Sequence record: NC_052654.1
DNA: 64,000 nt
Strand: one strand, 5' to 3'
Origin: Escherichia phage vB_EcoM-Ro121c4YLVW
The notes under the pieces were generated by a model, which saw only the letters and a list, made by a program, of their open reading frames with translations, ran no database searches and was not told where the DNA came from. Numbering within the stretch: position 1 is the stretch's first letter; the number at the start of each line of letters is the position of its first letter. Positions 2,653 through 35,779 of this stretch are shown here, piece by piece. The position numbers and the translations under genes are program-made.

Positions 2653-3714
2653 TTAGCCTCCAATATCGTACCAGTTTCCGTTAACGTTGCGCTGGAGGCG
2701 TTTGAAGTAAACCCCACCGATGTTATCCGCAGAGCTACGTCCTGTTTCCTGTACGATAATACCAGAAAGAACATAACCAGAAGAACAGATATAAGTCCAA
2801 GAAACCTCGTTCCCTGGTGGATAATACACACCTTGGCTAGTATAACGAATATCTCTTACAAAGGTTCCGTTAGCATAGTTGTAGTTATTTGTAATCTGAC
2901 TTTGATGATTACTTTCTACATTGTTTATACGAGAAGAGAGGTTGTTGTTAACATTATTCAAGTTGTTTTGAACACTGTTAATATTCGTCTGCAATGTGTT
3001 CTGAAGGGAAGTCAAACGAGAGTTCAGATAATCTAAACGAACTAAAGCATTTCCGTTAGAAGTATCTTGTCCACTGTTCGATCTTGGATTATCTATTAGA
3101 ACATAACCTGCATCATATAAACGAACACCTGCCGATATACTACCTGTGCTAGGATTTCTACGATAGATGTAAAGCTGACCTCCGCTTTGATACTCGGCAG
3201 AAATCTCACCATTTGTTTGTCCTGCAAAGTTTTTGAAGAACAGTGTTGCAGGATCTGTTGTGGAAGTACCGTTAACATAAACATCGCCACCATAAATAGC
3301 ACCACCCGCATCACGTTTTACCAACACGTTTGGTGTTACTGTTGAACTAGTGGCATCTGTAATGTTTGCCGACAAGTGATTATGACTGTTATCTTGAACC
3401 TGGATAGATAAAGTAACTTCTTTGTTACCGTTCCAAGTAGCCTCACCCGTAGCATCACCTGCCATTGTAATCTTAGTTCCCACTAAAGGCAAGTAGGTAT
3501 TAGGTAAAGTTGGAAGAAAGTCATCCACCAAATAGCGAATCCATAAACCGATATTATTAAGAATCCAGTTCATTTCTTCGCAAGTCATGATTTGACCATA
3601 ATCCATACCAACTGTGCGGATGGTTTCTTTAGGTCTAATTTTGTTTGTGTTTAAAGTTCCTGGGAGCGTTACAGTTTGTGTAGCCCAGTCAGGATAATAT
3701 ATTGGCTTCGCCAT
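2653..3714 (-). CDS. tail fiber protein
   Basis: 353 aa; N/S/T-rich with NNVNNNLSSRINNVESN-type repeats typical of fiber shafts. Confidence 0.6.
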   Translation of the reverse strand: MAKPIYYPDWATQTVTLPGTLNTNKIRPKETIRTVGMDYGQIMTCEEMNWILNNIGLWIRYLVDDFLPTLPNTYLPLVGTKITMAGDATGEATWNGNKEVTLSIQVQDNSHNHLSANITDATSSTVTPNVLVKRDAGGAIYGGDVYVNGTSTTDPATLFFKNFAGQTNGEISAEYQSGGQLYIYRRNPSTGSISAGVRLYDAGYVLIDNPRSNSGQDTSNGNALVRLDYLNSRLTSLQNTLQTNINSVQNNLNNVNNNLSSRINNVESNHQSQITNNYNYANGTFVRDIRYTSQGVYYPPGNEVSWTYICSSGYVLSGIIVQETGRSSADNIGGVYFKRLQRNVNGNWYDIGG

Positions 3715-3723
3715 TTAAACTCC

Positions 3724-4353
3724 TTAATCTATTTGCTTGAGAAGCGTACACATGCGTCCTGTTTCATCCCCAGTAGATTCCATGTACAGGGAACCTAAAC
3801 CACCAATACCATGAGGCGGTTTGGTAGCATAATAAGAACTAAAACCAAAAGCTGATCCTGCTTTTGCTCCAAGACGGTAGCTACTAATAATAGGGAAAAC
3901 ACTTAGCAACTGCTCTAAAGCTTGATCAGATTGAAGACACAGGTTGTAGAAAAACACATCAAAGGTTTTATTCAAACCTACGTAAGTATTAAGCGTTTCA
4001 CGCTCTGTTCCTGTGAAACGGGCGAAGATATCAATTATGTCACCACGAGTCCCCGATGAGGCTACGCGGTAAGCCCTGATTTTTAATATTGTTCTATACT
4101 CTTCATCATCAGAGCCATTACGTTCGATCCCCATTTCTTCCCCTAGAATATCTAAGTATTTGCCTGTGGCTGTAGAGATCAAGCGGTGTTTAGCAAGATA
4201 GATCATTGCCTGATCTATCTTTTGCTTTTCACTGGATACGATGTAGAGGAGCTTGACAATGTTAGGAGAAGATTTAAAATCTTCAATCAGAAGGTTTTTA
4301 ACATCTTCATTGATACTGGCCCAAGTTGTTACATGGTCAACACTCACTGCCAT
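3724..4353 (-). CDS. putative baseplate/tail protein
   Basis: 209 aa ORF immediately downstream of baseplate J-like gene; gpI-like by position. Confidence 0.4.
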   Translation of the reverse strand: MAVSVDHVTTWASINEDVKNLLIEDFKSSPNIVKLLYIVSSEKQKIDQAMIYLAKHRLISTATGKYLDILGEEMGIERNGSDDEEYRTILKIRAYRVASSGTRGDIIDIFARFTGTERETLNTYVGLNKTFDVFFYNLCLQSDQALEQLLSVFPIISSYRLGAKAGSAFGFSSYYATKPPHGIGGLGSLYMESTGDETGRMCTLLKQID

Positions 4354-30177: not shown

Positions 30178-32253
30178 TTATCTTTTACGGACACTATACG
30201 GTTGGTGAAATCCGCTGTTCATTCTACTGTATCCTGTAGGAGCATTTGTTGTTGCAGGGATAGCTACTGCTTTGAAAGTATTCTCTTTTGACAGAGTATT
30301 GAAACAAGAAGCAGCAGCATCGGGAATGTCATCTTTAATAGTGGCTGTAGATCTTTCACCATTGAAAGATTCCAATTCTTTATAAAAGTGGGTTAAAGTT
30401 TCCACATTAGGGAAAGAATCTTCAACAATATAAACAAAACCGTTTTGACACGCACTACTAAAAGGCATAAAACGCTGAAGCTTTTTCTTGTTGCCTGGCA
30501 TAGCATCTGGTTTAACAACAAAACCCTCTAGAATAAGTTTCTTTGCAGACTCTGTATATTCTATTGTCCCAGCACCAGATGGGTCTTTAGGAAGAACTAC
30601 TGTAACTTCTGGTCCATCAATCTTACATTGATTTAGAATCAGGTTATCCCTTTCCCCAGGTAATCTTCGAAACCTTCCGAAAATTTTACTTTTCTCATCC
30701 ACAGCATCATAATCATAGTCACCAAAGATGTAGATATTACCATCTTGGTCTTTACCCATTTTGACAGATGTTGTATAGTCTGGATAACGATAAGTTTCTG
30801 TAGGAACTGAAACAGCTTTATCCCATGCTCGCATTAGTTTAAGATTATTAGGAACATCTTTATAAGATATCTTATGCAACCATTCACGTTGGAAGAAAGA
30901 CTCTTTCTGTATACGTGCAAACCAACAGCCGTCCAAGAGTTGTGCTCTTTTGATTGCTGTTTGTGATTTAAGCTGTGCTAAATAATTAGGGTTAAGCCTA
31001 ATCAATTCTGGGTTATCAAATATTGTCCCACCGATAAATACGAAAGTTTGTGGTTCAATAACAACTGTCTCCCCTGTATTAGGGTTTTCCATGAAACAGT
31101 TTTCTGGATATTTTTCTTTCAGTTCTTCAGGTGTGTCAGCAAAAACAGGTTCATCGTTAACAATGATGAAATATTTTTGTTTACCACACATATCTTCTCT
31201 AGGATAACCGCCCTCATCGAGATAAGGTAGTACCCAATTCAAAACCCAACTATCTGCATCGGGGTTACATGTGCACAACATGAAGCTTGTTTCTGATTCT
31301 GAACGCATACGTCCCAGAAGATAGAGCATTTCATACTGTGTGAAGTGGGTTAACTCGTCAAAACCTACCATTGAATACTGTGTACCCTGATGGTTTGTTT
31401 CTGCGGTTACGTTATCGTTTTCCAAATGGTCAAATTTGAGGGTTCCGCCGCCAGTGGCTTCAAAAATGATATCCATTGTACTTTCTTTTACGTGTGGTTG
31501 TAAAGGAAGATACAAACGTTTTGCTTCTGTAAACAGACCACCTGGTTTACGGTGAGCAGTGGTGTTCTTACGGAAAAGTATTCCACCAAACAAAGGGTCT
31601 TTGTAGGCGTATTTTAAAGCTTTCAGCAATAGCAGACGAGACTTGCCGCTATTCCCAGTAACGAAGCAGTGATCGCCACGTCTAAAGACAATATAGCTGC
31701 TTGGAGTCTCAAAACAATATTTCTTATCATCTGTTGAAATAACCTCGTGTATTTTTAAGTAAGTGCTCTTTTTACCAGGTATGTTAAAAGGAACACGTTT
31801 ACCGAATGGATTTTCTACATAACCTTGCAGGGGTTTTCCTATTTGCTGTAATGCAATAAGATCTCCTACAAGAATCTCGAAATGTTTCTTTGATTTCTTT
31901 TTCTTATAGAATACAAAACGGTGTTCCATACTAAGTTCTTGGAACAATCCTACACCATTTGTTATTCTGTATAGATTATCTCCATTTAAATCGTATTCTA
32001 CAAAGTAAGGTGTTACCAATTCTAAACGCTTATTCTTAGGGTTGTATTGGTAAATATCCTCTCCCGAATATTCACTAATCTGTTTCCAACCATCTTTTGT
32101 AAGATATTCCGTTTCAGCAGAAACACATCCAGCGGCACCACCATAAATCATAACTTCTGGCATTAAATCCATTGCAAGAGTCTGTTTACCTGGTTGAGCC
32201 TTTACTTCAATATCTACTCCAGCTAAACTACCTGCTGCCTTTTTCTTTGCCAC
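30178..32253 (-). CDS. terminase large subunit containing a mini-intein in the Walker A P-loop
   Basis: 691 aa; joining exteins gives Walker A GGAAG-SGKS; Walker B VGFDELTHF. Confidence 0.85.
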   Translation of the reverse strand: MAKKKAAGSLAGVDIEVKAQPGKQTLAMDLMPEVMIYGGAAGCVSAETEYLTKDGWKQISEYSGEDIYQYNPKNKRLELVTPYFVEYDLNGDNLYRITNGVGLFQELSMEHRFVFYKKKKSKKHFEILVGDLIALQQIGKPLQGYVENPFGKRVPFNIPGKKSTYLKIHEVISTDDKKYCFETPSSYIVFRRGDHCFVTGNSGKSRLLLLKALKYAYKDPLFGGILFRKNTTAHRKPGGLFTEAKRLYLPLQPHVKESTMDIIFEATGGGTLKFDHLENDNVTAETNHQGTQYSMVGFDELTHFTQYEMLYLLGRMRSESETSFMLCTCNPDADSWVLNWVLPYLDEGGYPREDMCGKQKYFIIVNDEPVFADTPEELKEKYPENCFMENPNTGETVVIEPQTFVFIGGTIFDNPELIRLNPNYLAQLKSQTAIKRAQLLDGCWFARIQKESFFQREWLHKISYKDVPNNLKLMRAWDKAVSVPTETYRYPDYTTSVKMGKDQDGNIYIFGDYDYDAVDEKSKIFGRFRRLPGERDNLILNQCKIDGPEVTVVLPKDPSGAGTIEYTESAKKLILEGFVVKPDAMPGNKKKLQRFMPFSSACQNGFVYIVEDSFPNVETLTHFYKELESFNGERSTATIKDDIPDAAASCFNTLSKENTFKAVAIPATTNAPTGYSRMNSGFHQPYSVRKR
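31651..32127 (-). other. mini-intein (159 aa, no homing endonuclease domain) in terminase
   Basis: starts Cys (CVSAETEY), block B-like SMEH, ends FVTGN with +1 Ser; coordinates checked codon by codon. Confidence 0.7.
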
Positions 32254-32262
32254 ATTCCCTCC

Positions 32263-32607
32263 TTATTCAGCAATAATACCTTTTTCTTGCAGTGTTTTAA
32301 TATATGTTTGTAAACCTAAAACCTTTCGTCTATCTTGCTCCCAAAGAGCGTTGTTTTGAGTTTGGTTGTTAACAACTTCAGATCTACTAACCCCTTTTGC
32401 AATTTGATTTTTAGTGTATGGCACAGGTGTCGATACTTTATCCATCAAATCCGAATCTGGACCTTTAACCTTTTCTATGGCTACAGCCTTACACTCATCA
32501 ATAAGAACTGGGGAAACTTTTGTTGATGATGAACAACCCGTCATCATTAGGGGCAAAGCAAGACATACTGCCAGAATTAGTTTTTGCATAATTCGTTGTA
32601 TCCTCAT
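32263..32607 (-). CDS. outer-membrane spanin lipoprotein (Rz1-like)
   Basis: signal peptide with lipobox LMMTGC; gene overlaps 3' end of i-spanin gene in another frame. Confidence 0.6.
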   Translation of the reverse strand: MRIQRIMQKLILAVCLALPLMMTGCSSSTKVSPVLIDECKAVAIEKVKGPDSDLMDKVSTPVPYTKNQIAKGVSRSEVVNNQTQNNALWEQDRRKVLGLQTYIKTLQEKGIIAE

Positions 32608-32890
32608 TGATCGTTTGTTTCTTCTTCTCTAAATCTGCTTTTAATTGTGCATTGTTTTTAGACAAGTTGTTTATTTGGGTATTTAATAATGCTCTTTCTT
32701 CATCTGCTCTTTTTTGAAGAACATCAAAATCCTGTTTTGCTTTTGCTTGGGCTGCTTGATATAATTGCGCTTGATAGGCAACACCATCTTTGTAGCCAGA
32801 CTCATGTATCTTGTTATAAGCAAACATTCCGGCAAGAATAAGAACAACAATTAAAACAAAACCTAATACAGTTTTAGTCTTTAGATTCAT
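32498..32890 (-). CDS. inner-membrane spanin (Rz-like)
   Basis: N-terminal TM helix (VLGFVLIVVLILAGMFAY) followed by coiled coil; overlaps o-spanin gene. Confidence 0.6.
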   Translation of the reverse strand: MNLKTKTVLGFVLIVVLILAGMFAYNKIHESGYKDGVAYQAQLYQAAQAKAKQDFDVLQKRADEERALLNTQINNLSKNNAQLKADLEKKKQTINEDTTNYAKTNSGSMSCFAPNDDGLFIINKSFPSSY

Positions 32891-33756: not shown

Positions 33757-33835
33757 TGGAGGCGGGAATCGGATTTGAACCGATGATCTCCAGCATATGA
33801 AACTGGCGAGGACGACCAGACTCCTCTATCCCGCT
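33757..33835 (-). tRNA. tRNA-Met (anticodon CAT)
   Basis: hand-folded cloverleaf; loop TTCATAT; T-arm ATCGG-TTCAAAT-CCGAT; CCA encoded; ends approximate. Confidence 0.7.
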
Positions 33836-33841
33836 ATTATG

Positions 33842-33913
33842 TATCCCGTGCTGGATTCGAACCAGCATCACAATAAGCTGTGGAACTCTTATCCTGTAAG
33901 TCTAACGGGAAAC
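33842..33913 (-). pseudogene. degenerate tRNA-like element
   Basis: canonical T-arm GCTGG-TTCGAAT-CCAGC and pairing acceptor strands but too short; no canonical anticodon arm; no CCA. Confidence 0.3.
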
Positions 33914-33987
33914 TGGTTGTTTCGACAAGAATCGAACTTGTGTCTCACGATTATCAGTCGTGGGTTCTACCATTGAACTACGAAACA
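33914..33987 (-). tRNA. tRNA-Ile (anticodon GAT)
   Basis: acceptor TGTTTCG/CGAAACA; stem CACGA/TCGTG; loop CTGATAA; CCA encoded. Confidence 0.8.
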
Positions 33988-33993
33988 TTTAAT

Positions 33994-34070
33994 TGGTCGG
34001 GACGGAGTGATTCGAACACTCGACCTCTCGCTCCCAAAGCGAGCGCACTACCAAGCTGTGCTACGTCCCG
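33994..34070 (-). tRNA. tRNA-Pro (anticodon TGG)
   Basis: acceptor CGGGACG/CGTCCCG; stem CTCGC/GCGAG; loop TTTGGGA; CCA encoded. Confidence 0.85.
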
Positions 34071-34163
34071 TGATAACATTCTAAAGGTACACCGCAAAAG
34101 AAAGTGTTCGGCGGCTCCTCGTTTTTAACTTCACACTTAAGGTAGTGACTCACCTTTGTTATA

Positions 34164-34239
34164 TGGCTGGTCTGTCTGGATTTGAACCAAACCTACGACA
34201 GTCAAAGTGTCGTGTGCTACCGGACTACACTACAAACCA
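34164..34239 (-). tRNA. tRNA-Gln (anticodon TTG)
   Basis: U1-A72 acceptor; stem CGACA/TGTCG; loop CTTTGAC; CCA encoded. Confidence 0.8.
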
Positions 34240-34337
34240 ATAAATCATTTAATGAAGGGCAACCAGAAGAAGTGTGAGAGAAGGAGAAAACCATGAGTAA
34301 AAGAGAAAGTTTTCTGGCAACCCTTTATTAAATAATT

Positions 34338-34411
34338 TGGAGCGTTCTACGAGGATCGAACTCGTGCCGCCGACTTGGAAGGACGGAATGCTACCGCTAC
34401 ACCAAGAACGC
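34338..34411 (-). tRNA. tRNA-Gly (anticodon TCC)
   Basis: acceptor GCGTTCT/AGAACGC; loop CTTCCAA; T-arm ACGAG-TTCGATC-CTCGT; U73; one stem mismatch. Confidence 0.65.
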
Positions 34412-34422
34412 CATATATATTT

Positions 34423-34452
34423 ACTATACTACATTTTACTATTTGTTGTCAA
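34423..34452 (-). promoter_or_regulatory. sigma70-like promoter inside tRNA cluster
   Basis: minus-sense TTGACA, 18 nt, TATAGT just upstream of tRNA-Gly 5' end. Confidence 0.5.
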
Positions 34453-34725
34453 GACTTTTATTGATTGGGACAGTGACGAGTATCCCGTTGGGTGACTAGC
34501 CCTACGTTCGGTAAGCTAACTTAAAATAATACAAAACCAAAGTCAAATATTATTCTTCGTTGCTGTCGATGGGAGAGCCGCTTCTCATTTTGCCCCATCC
34601 AACCCTACTCCGGTCAAGTTTCGGGTGACTCTTTTTGTGATCAACACAATACTAAGAACACTGTCTTTCGAGCAGACCTTGTGCACAGGATACGACGATC
34701 AATCACAGTGCTCTTAATGTTGTGT

Positions 34726-34800
34726 TGGTGCTCCCACACTGAATCGAACAGAGATCCACGGATTACAAAACCGTTGTAATAGCCATTATACTATAGGAGC
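34726..34800 (-). tRNA. tRNA-Thr (anticodon TGT)
   Basis: acceptor GCTCCTA/TGGGAGC; loop TTTGTAA; CCA encoded. Confidence 0.7.
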
Positions 34801-34806
34801 AATGCT

Positions 34807-34884
34807 GGGACTCGGCAGGATTCGATACCTGCAATTCCAGAAGCCTATTGGCGACTGGGGGGTTTACCTTAACTCTACAAGTCC
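34807..34884 (-). pseudogene. degenerate tRNA-like element
   Basis: pairing acceptor strands and T-arm-like GCAGG-TATCGAAT-CCTGC (8 nt loop) but no anticodon arm; no CCA. Confidence 0.3.
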
Positions 34885-34891
34885 ATAATTC

Positions 34892-34977
34892 TGGCGATGA
34901 GTATAGGATTCGAACCTATATTGTTCTTTCGAACACGGATTAACAGTCCGCCGCTTAAACCATTCAGCCAACTCATC
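34892..34977 (-). tRNA. tRNA with Asn anticodon arm (GTT) and long type-II variable arm
   Basis: 86 nt; acceptor GATGAGT/ACTCATC; arm GCGGA-CTGTTAA-TCCGT; extra arm GTTC-GAAA-GAAC; G73; CCA encoded. Confidence 0.6.
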
Positions 34978-34983
34978 TTAATT

Positions 34984-35071
34984 TGGTGGTGAGTGATGGA
35001 GTCGAACCACCCGAATCGCAATGATAACAGATTTACAGTCTGCCCCGCTACCCCTACGGAATTAACTCACC
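34984..35071 (-). tRNA. tRNA-Tyr (anticodon GTA)
   Basis: 88 nt type II; acceptor GGTGAGT/ACTCACC; loop CTGTAAA; A73; CCA encoded. Confidence 0.8.
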
Positions 35072-35201
35072 TAAATACTAATATTTAAATTCTTTTTAAA
35101 ATAGCCAGTGTTCACACCACTAACTATGAGGTATCGGTAAAGTGGTTACCGCCACTTGCCGAAGATTTACTCTGCTAAAGTAAGCTACATTAAAAAGAAC
35201 T

Positions 35202-35287
35202 TGGCGGTAGATGTAGGACTCGAACCTACACGCCGTTTCCGACTACAGTTTAGCAAACTGTCGTGGCTACCATTTCACCAATCTACC
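35202..35287 (-). tRNA. tRNA-Ser (anticodon GCT)
   Basis: 86 nt type II; acceptor GGTAGAT/ATCTACC; loop TTGCTAA; CCA encoded. Confidence 0.85.
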
Positions 35288-35292
35288 TAATC

Positions 35293-35383
35293 TGGCGGAA
35301 GGAGGGAGAGTCGAACTCCCAAGGCTCTTTCAAGCTCGGCGGTTTTCAAGACCGTTTTCGTCGCCACATCGATTTGCCCTTCC
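35293..35383 (-). tRNA. tRNA-Ser (anticodon TGA)
   Basis: 91 nt type II; loop CTTGAAA; T-arm GGGAG-TTCGACT-CTCCC; CCA encoded. Confidence 0.85.
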
Positions 35384-35391
35384 ATACTTAT

Positions 35392-35421
35392 AATCTAACA
35401 TAAAATAATGTTTGTTGTCAA
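35392..35421 (-). promoter_or_regulatory. sigma70-like promoter inside tRNA cluster
   Basis: minus-sense ATTGACAA then TTAGATT about 17 nt later, just upstream of tRNA-Ser(TGA). Confidence 0.45.
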
Positions 35422-35627
35422 TAGTTTTTTAAAACATTTTACCATGAATGGTGACTCCACCAACCCCCGTTCTCCACGAACGGTGCTCTTCGAGCATTTA
35501 TGTCTTCTAATATAACCGTGGCCTTTGTTTATAATGTCTGACATACTTGCCTCATTCTCTGCCACCATGATCAGTAGTGGGTTCAAATCACTTGAGCTAA
35601 TTCATGTTAAAATGTTCTGGTGTCTTT

Positions 35628-35702
35628 ACAAGGAATCGAACCTTGACTAAGAGTTTAGAAGACTCCTGTGCTATCCATTACACCATAAAGACTTTGGTGG
35701 CC
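35628..35702 (-). tRNA. tRNA-Arg (anticodon TCT)
   Basis: acceptor GTCTTTA/TAAAGAC; loop CTTCTAA; CCA encoded. Confidence 0.8.
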
Positions 35703-35704
35703 CT

Positions 35705-35779
35705 GGCTGGTTTCGATCCAGCTACCTATCGGTTATGAGCCGACAGCTCTCCCATTGAGCTACAGGGCCATAAATGTGG
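35705..35779 (-). tRNA. tRNA with CAT anticodon, tRNA-Ile2 (lysidine) -like
   Basis: acceptor GGCCCTG/CAGGGCC; loop CTCATAA; resembles E. coli tRNA-Ile2 as recalled; CCA encoded. Confidence 0.75.

What the first reader, a model, noticed from the sequence alone, without database searches (positions are those of the whole stretch)
31651..32127. Mini-intein interrupting the Walker A P-loop of the large terminase
Seen in sequence: the terminase ORF is 691 aa; residues 43-201 start with Cys (CVSAETEY), have a block-B-like SMEH, and end FVTGN followed by Ser. Removing them joins GGAAG to SGKSRLL, recreating a canonical Walker A GxxxxGK[ST]; Walker B VGFDELTHF lies downstream. Established knowledge: terminase P-loops are a recurrent intein insertion site. 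Unusual points are the small size (159 aa, no endonuclease domain), a poly-Lys stretch (YKKKKSKKH), and Gly rather than His before the terminal Asn.
Basis: partly seen in the sequence, partly recalled or inferred. Interest (0 to 1): 0.6.

Follow-up and report, generated by a model that had tools for sequence, protein, structure and literature searches.

The report
Unannotated mini-intein splitting a phage terminase
The DNA-packaging enzyme of this phAPEC8-like E. coli phage has its ATP-binding loop interrupted by a real but unannotated 159-residue self-splicing protein element (intein), an ordinary kind of element whose unusual feature is a second, almost invariant active-site cysteine.

Summary
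The window comes from a Phapecoctavirus, a phAPEC8-like coliphage. Its 691-aa large terminase ORF (30178-32253, minus strand) carries a 159-aa insert (31651-32127) between G42 and S202. More than 50 homologues read GG[AS]AG|SGKS without interruption. About 35 carry an insert at exactly this bond; every one starts with Cys, ends [TS]GN and is followed by Ser.

The "odd" penultimate Gly is conserved across the family and is shared with AceL NrdHF, where Arg at B:11 replaces the penultimate His. The window has R70 at that position. The small size is normal for a mini-intein.

This two-cysteine signature marks a large phage-borne family.

Which cysteine starts splicing cannot be decided computationally. 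I rate this a new member of a known kind, of moderate interest.

The parts
30178..32253 (-). Large terminase (TerL) precursor ORF, 691 aa, 78.6 kDa. GTG start with AAGGAGG 4 nt upstream.
   Evidence: Pfam Terminase_6N matches residues 202-460. PHROG 979 terminase large subunit, E 9e-217. 99.9% identical to TerL of Escherichia phage ESCO13 and other Phapecoctavirus records.
32128..32253 (-). N-extein, residues 1-42, ending ...VMIYGGAAG.
   Evidence: Alignment with homologues that lack the insert.
32128..32139 (-). N-terminal half of Walker A (G39-A-A-G42).
31651..32127 (-). Mini-intein, 159 aa (TerL residues 43-201), 18.6 kDa, with no homing endonuclease domain.
32086..32127 (-). Block A: Cys1 (TerL C43) and CVSAETEYLTKDGW. 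C1, T6, E7, G13 and W14 are invariant in the TerL set.
   Evidence: Cys1 in 97/101 and 178/179 family members.
31915..31935 (-). Block B: L-S66-M-E-H69-R70-F71. This gives B:7 Ser, B:10 His, B:11 Arg and B:12 Phe.
   Evidence: It aligns with S65/H68/R69/M70 of AceL NrdHF.
31756..31905 (-). Clade-specific middle region (intein residues 75-124). It includes the Lys-rich loop KKKKSKK and a predicted helix at 87-95, and it sits where larger relatives carry a LAGLIDADG-like endonuclease domain.
   Evidence: pLDDT is 50-63. It has no counterpart in the large relatives by hhalign. It is nevertheless under purifying selection, dN/dS 0.053.
31693..31725 (-). Block F: K-K-Y-C138-F-E-T-P-S-S-Y. Cys138 (TerL C180) occupies position F:4.
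   Evidence: Invariant in 24/24, 101/101 and 176/179 family members. It aligns with the catalytic Cys124 of AceL NrdHF.
31648..31668 (-). Block G and C-terminal splice junction: C-F-V-T157-G158-N159 | S202 (+1).
   Evidence: The ending is the same as in AceL NrdHF...SVTGN|S.
31639..31650 (-). C-terminal half of Walker A (S202-G-K-S205). S202 is also the +1 splicing nucleophile.
30178..31650 (-). C-extein, residues 202-691 plus the stop codon: the rest of the ATPase domain and the nuclease domain.
   Evidence: Pfam Terminase_6N at 202-460; TIGR01630 (sub-threshold hit: 23.6 bits against a curated cutoff of 41.65, E 6e-05) at 559-654.
31354..31371 (-). Walker B, M-V-G-F-D299-E300.
   Evidence: D299 and E300 are invariant in 19 homologues.

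Best explanation
Residues 43-201 of the terminase large subunit are a functional cis-splicing mini-intein with no endonuclease domain. It is fixed in the phAPEC8/phi92 phage lineage (Stephanstirmvirinae).

The 78.6-kDa precursor cannot bind ATP, because the intein sits between the 4th and 5th residues of the Walker A loop (GAAG|SGKS). After translation the HINT domain folds and brings both junctions together. The following steps are inferred by homology, not shown.

1. The Gly42-Cys43 peptide bond is converted into a thioester.
2. The N-extein acyl group is passed to the hydroxyl of Ser202 (+1).
3. Asn159 cyclises and releases the 18.6-kDa intein. Arg70 (B:11) assists, standing in for the missing penultimate His.
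4. An O-to-N acyl shift yields the 60.1-kDa, 532-aa terminase with an intact P-loop.

The intein belongs to a large, mostly phage-borne family marked by Cys1, [ST]xxH, K-Y-Cys(F:4)-F and [TS]-Gly-Asn|[S/C/T]. Its closest characterised relative is the atypical class 3 AceL NrdHF intein.

Both Cys1 and Cys138 are almost invariant, so my preferred reading is that both take part: Cys1 forms the linear thioester and Cys138 acts as a relay or branch point next to Ser+1 (about 40%). The alternatives are a purely class 1 route with Cys138 only assisting (about 30%) and a purely class 3 route started by Cys138 (about 25-30%).
For: Shown by tools:

- Precise presence or absence of the insert at one peptide bond in homologues.
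- The precursor has no Walker A; the spliced product has one.
- Profile homology to 6zgq at E 6.8e-12 and to PolII inteins at 7e-4.
- An end-to-end BLASTP alignment with AceL NrdHF superposes S66/H69/F71/C138/T157/G158/N159 on S65/H68/M70/C124/T144/G145/N146.
- The catalytic positions are invariant in three samples: 24 TerL inteins, 101 viral-contig inteins and 179 domains from an unbiased HMM scan.
- dN/dS is 0.055 for the intein against 0.057 for the extein between Phapecoctavirus and Justusliebigvirus.
- All 131-132 related phage genomes, which are viable lytic phages, carry the insert.
- Larger relatives have a LAGLIDADG-like domain at the usual site.

From the literature:

- AceL NrdHF splices within minutes with Gly at G:6, and Arg B:11 compensates for the missing His.
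- A penultimate Gly is functional in the Bethlehem gp51 intein.
- Terminase P-loops are recurrent intein sites.

Bearing on the role of Cys138:

- Four or five diverged family members have Pro1 instead of Cys1, in intact ORFs at an orthologous site.
Against: - No experiment shows splicing of this protein.
- Pfam and NCBIfam Hint/intein models give no hit.
- The model's middle third (residues 75-130) has low confidence.
- Canonical assisting residues are missing: Asp at F:4 and His at G:6.
- The Lys-rich middle region is conserved for no known reason.
- The choice between Cys1 and Cys138 as initiating nucleophile rests only on conservation patterns and one characterised homologue. That homologue is a sister to the family, not nested within it.
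- I could not read model coordinates, so I did not measure active-site distances.
Confidence: 0.88

Rival explanations
1. This is an ordinary class 1 intein. Cys1 alone starts splicing by an N-S acyl shift and Ser+1 attacks the linear thioester directly. Cys138 merely fills the structural or hydrogen-bonding role that Asp F:4 plays elsewhere, or serves as a redox partner of Cys1.
For: - Cys1 is conserved in 97/101 and 178/179 family members. That is hard to explain if it were catalytically idle.
- The canonical block B [ST]xxH motif is present.
- The class 1 gp41-1 intein also has Cys1, Phe at B:12, Thr at G:5 and Ser+1 (residue numbers and the PDB titles).
- By the operational census definition (no Cys at N1:1), this intein is not class 3.
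Against: - Cys at F:4 is conserved as strongly as Cys1 (176/179), whereas class 1 inteins usually have Asp there.
- In the nearest characterised homologue, the equivalent Cys124 is the obligatory nucleophile.
- A diverged lineage with Pro1 persists with intact ORFs.
Confidence: 0.3
2. This is a class 3 intein that happens to keep Cys1. Cys138 attacks the Gly42-Cys43 bond directly and forms the block F branched thioester, which is then transferred to Ser+1. Cys1 is not needed for catalysis.
For: - Cys at F:4, Thr at G:5 and Ser/Thr at +1, together with a P-loop site in terminase, SNF2, RecG and DnaB-like hosts, match the class 3 pattern.
- The closest solved and tested relative, AceL NrdHF, is class 3 and has the same ...VTGN|S ending.
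- Pro1 members exist.
Against: - Near-total retention of Cys1 over deep divergence argues for selection on it.
- Trp at B:12 is absent: W in 0/101 and 2/179.
- AceL NrdHF is an outgroup, not a member of the family.
Confidence: 0.27
3. The insert is a HINT-like domain that no longer splices. Either it is tolerated inside TerL, or it inactivates this copy while another terminase does the packaging.
For: - There is no experimental evidence of splicing.
- No endonuclease domain is present, so the element is no longer mobile.
- The middle region is conserved beyond what splicing alone seems to need.
Against: - All nucleophiles and assisting residues are invariant, which a non-splicing domain would not require.
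- The insert breaks the Walker A loop, and no other Walker A exists in the protein.
- Each related genome shows a single TerL match (places_in_record = 1).
- 131-132 viable phages keep the insert under dN/dS 0.055.
Confidence: 0.04
4. The insert is a terminase-specific accessory domain unrelated to inteins.
For: PHROG 979, a TerL family profile, covers the insert. Pfam finds no Hint domain in it.
Against: - The same domain occurs at equivalent P-loop bonds in SNF2, RecG, RecA, DnaB-like and zeta-toxin-like proteins, and also in RtcB.
- All structural neighbours are HINT domains.
- PHROG 979 covers the insert only because the family's members contain the intein.
Confidence: 0.01

Closest known systems
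AceL NrdHF intein (PDB 6zgq; Hoffmann et al. 2020, PMC7891396), an atypical, naturally split class 3 intein from a phage-like Antarctic metagenome contig
   Same: - It has Ser at B:7, His at B:10, Arg at B:11, a non-Trp hydrophobic residue at B:12, Cys at F:4 and a Pro in block F.
- It has an identical ...VTGN|S C-terminal junction and lacks His at both F:13 and G:6.
- It is of mini-intein size: 146 aa against 159 aa.
   Different: - AceL begins with Ala1, whereas the window intein begins with Cys1, which is near-invariant in the family.
- AceL is split and sits in a ribonucleotide reductase, not in a P-loop.
- Identity is only 18-32% in the splicing core, and AceL falls outside the family in a distance tree.
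- The window intein has about 14 extra residues, including a Lys-rich loop, after block B.
Canonical class 3 (WCT) inteins, e.g. mycobacteriophage Bethlehem DnaB and M. smegmatis DnaBi1 (PMC2807308, PMC6195587)
   Same: - Cys at F:4, Thr at G:5 and Ser/Thr at +1.
- Phage association.
- Insertion in ATPase P-loops of helicase-like proteins and terminases.
   Different: - The window intein has Cys1.
- It has Phe rather than Trp at B:12.
- It has Gly rather than His at G:6.
- It would be excluded by the operational definition 'no Cys at N1:1'.
Mycobacteriophage terminase inteins (Kelley et al. 2016, PMC5050341)
   Same: - These are inteins in the ATPase domain of TerL, including Walker A.
- Phage inteins often lack the penultimate His, and Gly at that position was shown to be functional.
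   Different: - Those P-loop sites (TerL1-a and TerL1-b) lie between or next to the Lys and Thr of GK|T in Terminase_1 proteins. This intein lies two residues upstream (G|SGKS) in a Terminase_6N protein.
- Their TerL6 intein is in the C-motif.
- The host is different: an enterobacterial myovirus.
gp41-1 class 1 mini-intein (PDB 6qaz)
   Same: - Cys1, Ser at B:7, His at B:10, Phe at B:12, Thr at G:5 and Ser+1.
- Small size and phage or metagenomic origin.
   Different: - gp41-1 has Asp at F:4 and His at G:6.
- Grafting Trp, Cys and Thr onto it together with C1A gave cleavage rather than splicing.

Membership tests
Intein (self-splicing HINT domain) | HINT (Hedgehog/intein) fold | tested here: met
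   [not shown]
Intein (self-splicing HINT domain) | In-frame insertion in a conserved host-protein motif, with homologues that lack it and read through seamlessly | tested here: met
   More than 50 homologues read GG[AS]AG|SGKS without interruption, and about 35 have an insert at the same bond. The distribution is sporadic when homologues are ordered by extein identity.
Intein (self-splicing HINT domain) | Splice-junction residues: Cys/Ser/Thr at position 1, C-terminal Asn (or Gln/Asp), and Cys/Ser/Thr at +1 | tested here: met
   C43, N201 and S202. In the family these are conserved at 178/179, 179/179 and 179/179 respectively.
Intein (self-splicing HINT domain) | Block B [TS]xxH motif | tested here: met
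   S66-M-E-H69. His is present in 179/179 and Ser/Thr in 169/179 family members.
Intein (self-splicing HINT domain) | Penultimate His (G:6); typical but not obligatory | tested here: not met
   The residue is Gly158, and Gly occurs in 176/179 family members. Documented exceptions splice well: AceL NrdHF and Bethlehem gp51.
Intein (self-splicing HINT domain) | Match to curated Hint/intein sequence models (Pfam, NCBIfam) | tested here: not met
   No hit at E of 1 or below for the insert, and none for 13 relatives. The family is too divergent for these models; homology appears only with a family profile.
Intein (self-splicing HINT domain) | Actual excision and extein ligation | not testable with these tools
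   This needs protein expression and mass spectrometry. Indirect support: viable phages, an interrupted P-loop, and dN/dS of 0.055.
Class 3 inteins | No Cys/Ser/Thr nucleophile at position 1 | tested here: not met
   Cys1 is present and occurs in 178/179 family members. Only a small Pro1 lineage lacks it.
Class 3 inteins | Cys at block F position 4 | tested here: met
   C138 aligns with Cys124 of AceL NrdHF. Cys occurs at this position in 176/179 family members.
Class 3 inteins | Trp at B:12 and Thr at G:5, the rest of the WCT triplet | tested here: inconclusive
   G:5 is Thr157, so that part is met. B:12 is Phe71, so that part is not met, and the family almost never has Trp there. Accepted class 3 variants include MCT, FCV and FCS.
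Class 3 inteins | Obligatory block F branched thioester intermediate | not testable with these tools
   This requires C180A/S and C43A mutants and thiol-lability assays like those.
Class 1 inteins | [quoted passage not shown] | tested here: inconclusive
   Cys1 is present and conserved. Whether it forms the thioester cannot be tested here. The usual Asp at F:4 is replaced by Cys.
Homing-endonuclease-containing (mobile) inteins | LAGLIDADG or HNH endonuclease domain between blocks B and F | tested here: not met
   The intein is only 159 aa with no Pfam hit, and the middle region has no counterpart in large relatives. Relatives of 300-340 aa do hit LAGLIDADG_3. Within the TerL set the match is weak (E 0.012). 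Across the family scores reach 23.4 bits inside the P-loop intein of L061; the 50.4- and 30.1-bit hits in L034 and L016 fall in other, downstream inteins of those proteins.
Terminase large subunit, Terminase_6N / T4-like type | ATPase domain with Walker A and Walker B, plus a C-terminal nuclease domain | tested here: met
   PF03237 at E 5e-17 over residues 202-460. PHROG 979 at E 9e-217. Walker A is complete only after removal of the insert. D299 and E300 are invariant.

The most novel reading that the evidence does not exclude
The intein is one member of a large, previously unclassified two-cysteine intein family, with Cys1 and Cys F:4 both about 98-99% conserved, Gly at G:6 and no Trp at B:12.

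On this reading, the N-extein is handed from Cys1 to Cys F:4 to the +1 residue as a thioester relay, or either cysteine can start the reaction. Such a family would be the natural bridge between class 1 and class 3 inteins. With two competent nucleophiles, Cys1 can be lost without a non-splicing intermediate. That loss is seen as Pro1 in a TerL-like lineage and as Ala1 in AceL NrdHF.

This would answer the objection that class 3 inteins cannot have diverged from class 1 (PMC7664689). It would also fill in the step assumed by Tori and Perler (PMC3196547).
Probability: 0.3. Interest if true: 0.7.

Novelty: new member of a known kind. Interest (0 to 1): 0.42.

Why it matters
Practical points:

- More than 130 sequenced E. 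coli, Klebsiella and related phages, several of them phage-therapy candidates, annotate this gene simply as a 691-aa "terminase large subunit". The mature enzyme is predicted to be 532 aa.
- A 2024 paper still states that no inteins have been reported in coliphages.
- The BASEL table counts zero inteins for a phage that carries this one.
- Structural, biochemical or engineering work on these terminases has to take the intein into account.
- Pfam-based intein surveys miss this whole family.

Mechanistic points:

- An easily cultured E. coli phage offers a tractable member of a family that conserves both the class 1 nucleophile and the class 3 nucleophile.
- Simple point mutants (C43A, C180A) would show whether the two routes coexist. 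That bears directly on how the class 3 mechanism arose.
- A small, endonuclease-free intein with Ser+1 whose closest characterised relative (AceL NrdHF) splices within minutes could also be useful as a protein-engineering tool; its own splicing rate is untested.

Tried and rejected
1. Pfam and NCBIfam scans of the insert and of relatives gave no Hint/intein hit. I treat this as a sensitivity limit, not as evidence against an intein.
2. A single-sequence phmmer search of the insert against PDB gave only chance-level hits: a portal protein at E 0.05 and a WW domain. I discarded these once the profile and fold searches gave consistent intein hits.
3. A word-indexed protein search with the insert alone returned only 5 fragments and was uninformative.
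4. I tested whether the middle region (VGDLIALQQIG...) is a remnant of the first LAGLIDADG helix, as a MAFFT alignment suggested. hhalign of mini against large inteins aligns only residues 1-78 and 125-159 with confidence, and BLASTP gives no middle-region match, so the idea is unsupported.
5. I tested whether AceL NrdHF is simply a family member that lost Cys1. In a distance tree it is an outgroup, so the idea is not supported.
7. I could not obtain Tori & Perler 2011 (class 3 inteins with Ser1/Cys1) or the phi92 genome paper. What I say about the former rests on citations in other papers.
8. I looked for other copies of this intein family in the window and found none.
9. I considered the A-rich Lys codons as a slippery site and rejected this. 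The longest A run is 5 nt, and the reading frame is conserved in all relatives.
Full report
**Where the window comes from**

The 691-aa product of the ORF at 30178..32253 (minus strand) is 99.6-99.9% identical to the large terminase of Escherichia phages ESCO13, phAPEC8 and many others. These belong to the genus Phapecoctavirus, subfamily Stephanstirmvirinae. The neighbours fit a phage structural module. Spanin genes lie upstream and the portal gene downstream. A cluster of ten tRNA genes lies at 33757-35769.

**The observation**

- Residues 43-201 (31651-32127, minus strand) start CVSAETEY, contain LSMEH and YKKKKSKKH, and end FVTGN, followed by SGKSRLL.
- The precursor contains no [AG]xxxxGK[ST] motif. 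Deleting the 159 residues creates exactly one, GAAGSGKS at residue 39, and Walker B (MVGFDE, 295-300) follows.
- Of 120 homologues found with the whole protein, more than 50 read GG[AS]AG-SGKS without interruption. About 35 carry an insert of 146, 149, 158/159, 246, 301 or about 325 residues at exactly that bond.
- Every insert starts with Cys, ends [TS]-G-N and is followed by Ser.

This presence/absence pattern is what defines an intein insertion site, and it cannot be chance.

**What the insert is**

Curated sequence libraries do not recognise it. Pfam and NCBIfam give nothing for the insert, and Terminase_6N matches only residues 202-460. Three independent lines show that it is a HINT domain.

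2. A profile of the 24 inserts hits the 6zgq sequence at E 6.8e-12 and archaeal PolII inteins at about 7e-4.
3. A plain BLASTP alignment with the AceL NrdHF sequence runs end to end: residues 6-159 against 6-146, 26% identity. I assembled that sequence and the paper's supplement. The alignment superposes S66/H69/F71/C138/T157/G158/N159 on S65/H68/M70/C124/T144/G145/N146. Both inteins end ...VTGN|S.

**Is it functional?**

- Within the clade whose exteins are at least 69% identical to the window protein, every member has the 158/159-aa insert, and intein identity tracks extein identity.
- The next clade, at 62-64% extein identity, lacks the insert. At about 50% identity, intein-free, 146-aa and about 325-aa alleles are interleaved. 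This is the sporadic distribution expected of a once-mobile element.
- Between the window phage and the phi92-like phage PaulScherrer, dN/dS is 0.055 for the intein and 0.057 for the extein. Synonymous sites are near saturation.
- The insert DNA is present in 132 phage records, all of them propagating phages.
- An insert that splits the only P-loop of an essential ATPase, is kept under this level of constraint and preserves every splicing residue is best explained by efficient protein splicing.
- Expected products are 78.6 kDa converted to 60.1 kDa (532 aa) plus 18.6 kDa.
- There is no endonuclease domain. The about 325-aa relatives hit LAGLIDADG_3: within the TerL set the match is weak (E 0.012). 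Across the family scores reach 23.4 bits inside the P-loop intein of L061; the 50.4- and 30.1-bit hits in L034 and L016 fall in other, downstream inteins of those proteins.
- The window element is therefore a fixed, immobile mini-intein.

- Size. 159 aa is ordinary for a mini-intein. AceL NrdHF has 146 aa, and the solved mini-inteins have 125-170.
- Penultimate Gly. This is a family constant: 101/101 in viral contigs and 176/179 in an unbiased scan. In AceL NrdHF the G145H change abolishes activity, because it clashes with Arg69 (B:11). That Arg hydrogen-bonds the C-scissile carbonyl and substitutes for the missing His. The window intein has Arg70 at B:11, and Arg is the commonest residue there in the family. 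A penultimate Gly is also functional in the mycobacteriophage Bethlehem gp51 intein.
- Lys-rich loop. It is conserved throughout the Stephanstirmvirinae clade. It lies just after block B, where larger relatives carry the endonuclease. It is modelled with low confidence and has no counterpart in the large relatives. The 75-125 segment is nevertheless under purifying selection, dN/dS 0.053. I have no explanation for it.

Block F reads K-Y-C-F, with Cys138 at position F:4. That is the position of the catalytic Asp in most class 1 inteins and of the initiating nucleophile in class 3 inteins. This Cys is invariant in the TerL set, which was collected through the extein and is therefore unbiased.

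I then asked how wide the family is. A pattern-seeded scan of IMG/VR found 134 relatives, of which 80 were kept. The same intein type sits at the equivalent bond of P-loops (G|[S/T/C]GK[S/T]) in several host proteins:

- other terminases;
- SNF2, RecG, RecA and DnaB-like primase-helicases;
- a zeta-toxin-like kinase;
- RtcB, where the site is not a P-loop.

That scan used KYCF as one of its seeds, so I repeated the census with an index-free HMM search of 1.84 billion cluster representatives. It gave 11,497 hits at E of 1e-3 or below, 2,900 at 1e-10 or below and 122 at 1e-30 or below. In the 179 full-length domains of the best 148 proteins, the key positions are as follows.

| Position | Residues |
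|---|---|
| 1 | Cys 178, Pro 1 |
| B:10 | His 179 |
| F:4 | Cys 176 |
| G:5 | Thr 128, Ser 34 |
| G:6 | Gly 176 |
| G:7 | Asn 179 |
| +1 | Ser 102, Cys 50, Thr 27 |
| B:12 | Val, Met, Ile, Phe or Leu; Trp only twice |

The window intein therefore belongs to a large, mainly phage-borne family that conserves both cysteines.

**Mechanism**

The general intein chemistry is inferred by homology: a thioester at the N-junction, transfer to Ser+1, Asn cyclisation and an O-to-N shift. Which cysteine initiates cannot be settled in silico.

- For a class 3-like role of Cys138:
  - the position is conserved;
  - Cys124 is essential in AceL NrdHF;
  - the host range is typical of class 3, namely P-loops of helicase-like proteins and terminases;
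  - a lineage of four or five well-diverged inteins has Pro1 in intact ORFs at a site orthologous to Cys1-bearing relatives.
- For a class 1 role of Cys1:
  - it is retained at about 99% over deep divergence, which a dispensable residue would not show;
  - the block B motif is canonical.
- AceL NrdHF is a sister to the family, not a nested member, so its mechanism cannot simply be transferred.
- By the operational census definition of class 3, which requires no Cys at N1:1 and Cys at C2:4, this family is excluded. By residue F:4 it is not a typical class 1 intein either.

My preferred reading is that both cysteines act, either as a Cys1 to Cys138 to Ser+1 relay or as redundant initiators (about 40%). 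The pure class 1 and pure class 3 routes are rivals at about 30% and about 27%.

**Comparison with what is known**

- Inteins in terminase ATPase domains and in P-loops are well documented.
- The mycobacteriophage P-loop sites lie at or next to GK|T in Terminase_1 proteins. This site is two residues upstream, in a Terminase_6N protein.
- I found no paper describing this intein. RefSeq and GenBank annotate a plain terminase.
- The BASEL supplementary table counts 0 inteins for phage EmilieFrey, which carries this one.
- A 2024 paper on a phi92-like phage that contains it states that no inteins have been reported in coliphages.
[quoted passage not shown] Precedent for class 3 chemistry in the presence of Cys1 may therefore exist. 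Tori et al. 2010 list three such inteins.

**Verdict**

As an intein in a terminase P-loop it is a new, unannotated member of a known kind.

The extra interest lies in the two-cysteine signature and its bearing on how class 3 splicing arose. [quoted passage not shown] Beyer et al. argue that such a route is improbable. The question is directly testable in this E. coli phage with a handful of point mutants.

Noticed in passing
L002 (Escherichia phage nepoznato MN850571), locus 2743-3786; equivalent to the window TerL C-extein: In phage nepoznato the same TerL gene is additionally split by a 969-nt insertion. The insertion carries an HNH homing endonuclease ORF and a group I intron match (Rfam RF00028, 47 bits against a gathering score of 50, E 7e-10). 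That gene therefore carries both an intein and an intron.
   Followed up: partly
window 33757-35769 (minus strand): A cluster of ten tRNA genes (Met x2, Ile, Pro, Gln, Gly, Thr, Asn, Ser, Arg) lies about 1.5 kb upstream of the terminase. Several mechanical ORFs listed in this stretch are just tRNA DNA.
   Followed up: partly
L034 (2393-5308), L018 (3-2792), L016 (1341-4265); also P0130 and P0146: Some terminase-like and other proteins carry two or three inteins of this family in one ORF; an example is the extra C[YV]D..TE... inserts in L034 and L018. Two representative proteins of about 2,600 aa have 5 and 7 matching stretches.
   Followed up: no
L034, L061, L066, L077 and P0184 (N-terminal junction GPFG|P...): A diverged lineage of this intein family has Pro instead of Cys at position 1. 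All other catalytic residues and the reading frame are intact, and the site is orthologous to that of Cys1-bearing relatives (L018, L029, L054).
   Followed up: partly
window 31651-32127 compared with the rest of the ORF: The intein DNA has lower G+C (0.344) than the extein and the window as a whole (both 0.39). This fits a foreign origin, despite the long co-evolution with the extein.
   Followed up: no
window 31756-31905 (intein residues 75-124): The Lys-rich loop KKKKSKK and the following segment of about 45 residues have no counterpart in related inteins and are poorly modelled. They are nevertheless conserved across two phage genera (dN/dS about 0.05). The reason is unknown.
   Followed up: partly
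BASEL collection S5 table (PMC8594841); phages PaulScherrer, EmilieFrey and JohannJBalmer: The table lists 2, 0 and 1 inteins for these three phi92-like phages, although all three carry the TerL mini-intein. Further, variable inteins must therefore exist elsewhere in this phage group. None of this family occurs elsewhere in the window.
   Followed up: partly
window 32263-32890 (minus strand): Two overlapping ORFs of 130 aa and 114 aa lie just upstream of TerL. The second has a lipoprotein-like signal (...LMMTGCSS). Together they correspond to the i-spanin/o-spanin pair annotated in phage PaulScherrer.
   Followed up: no
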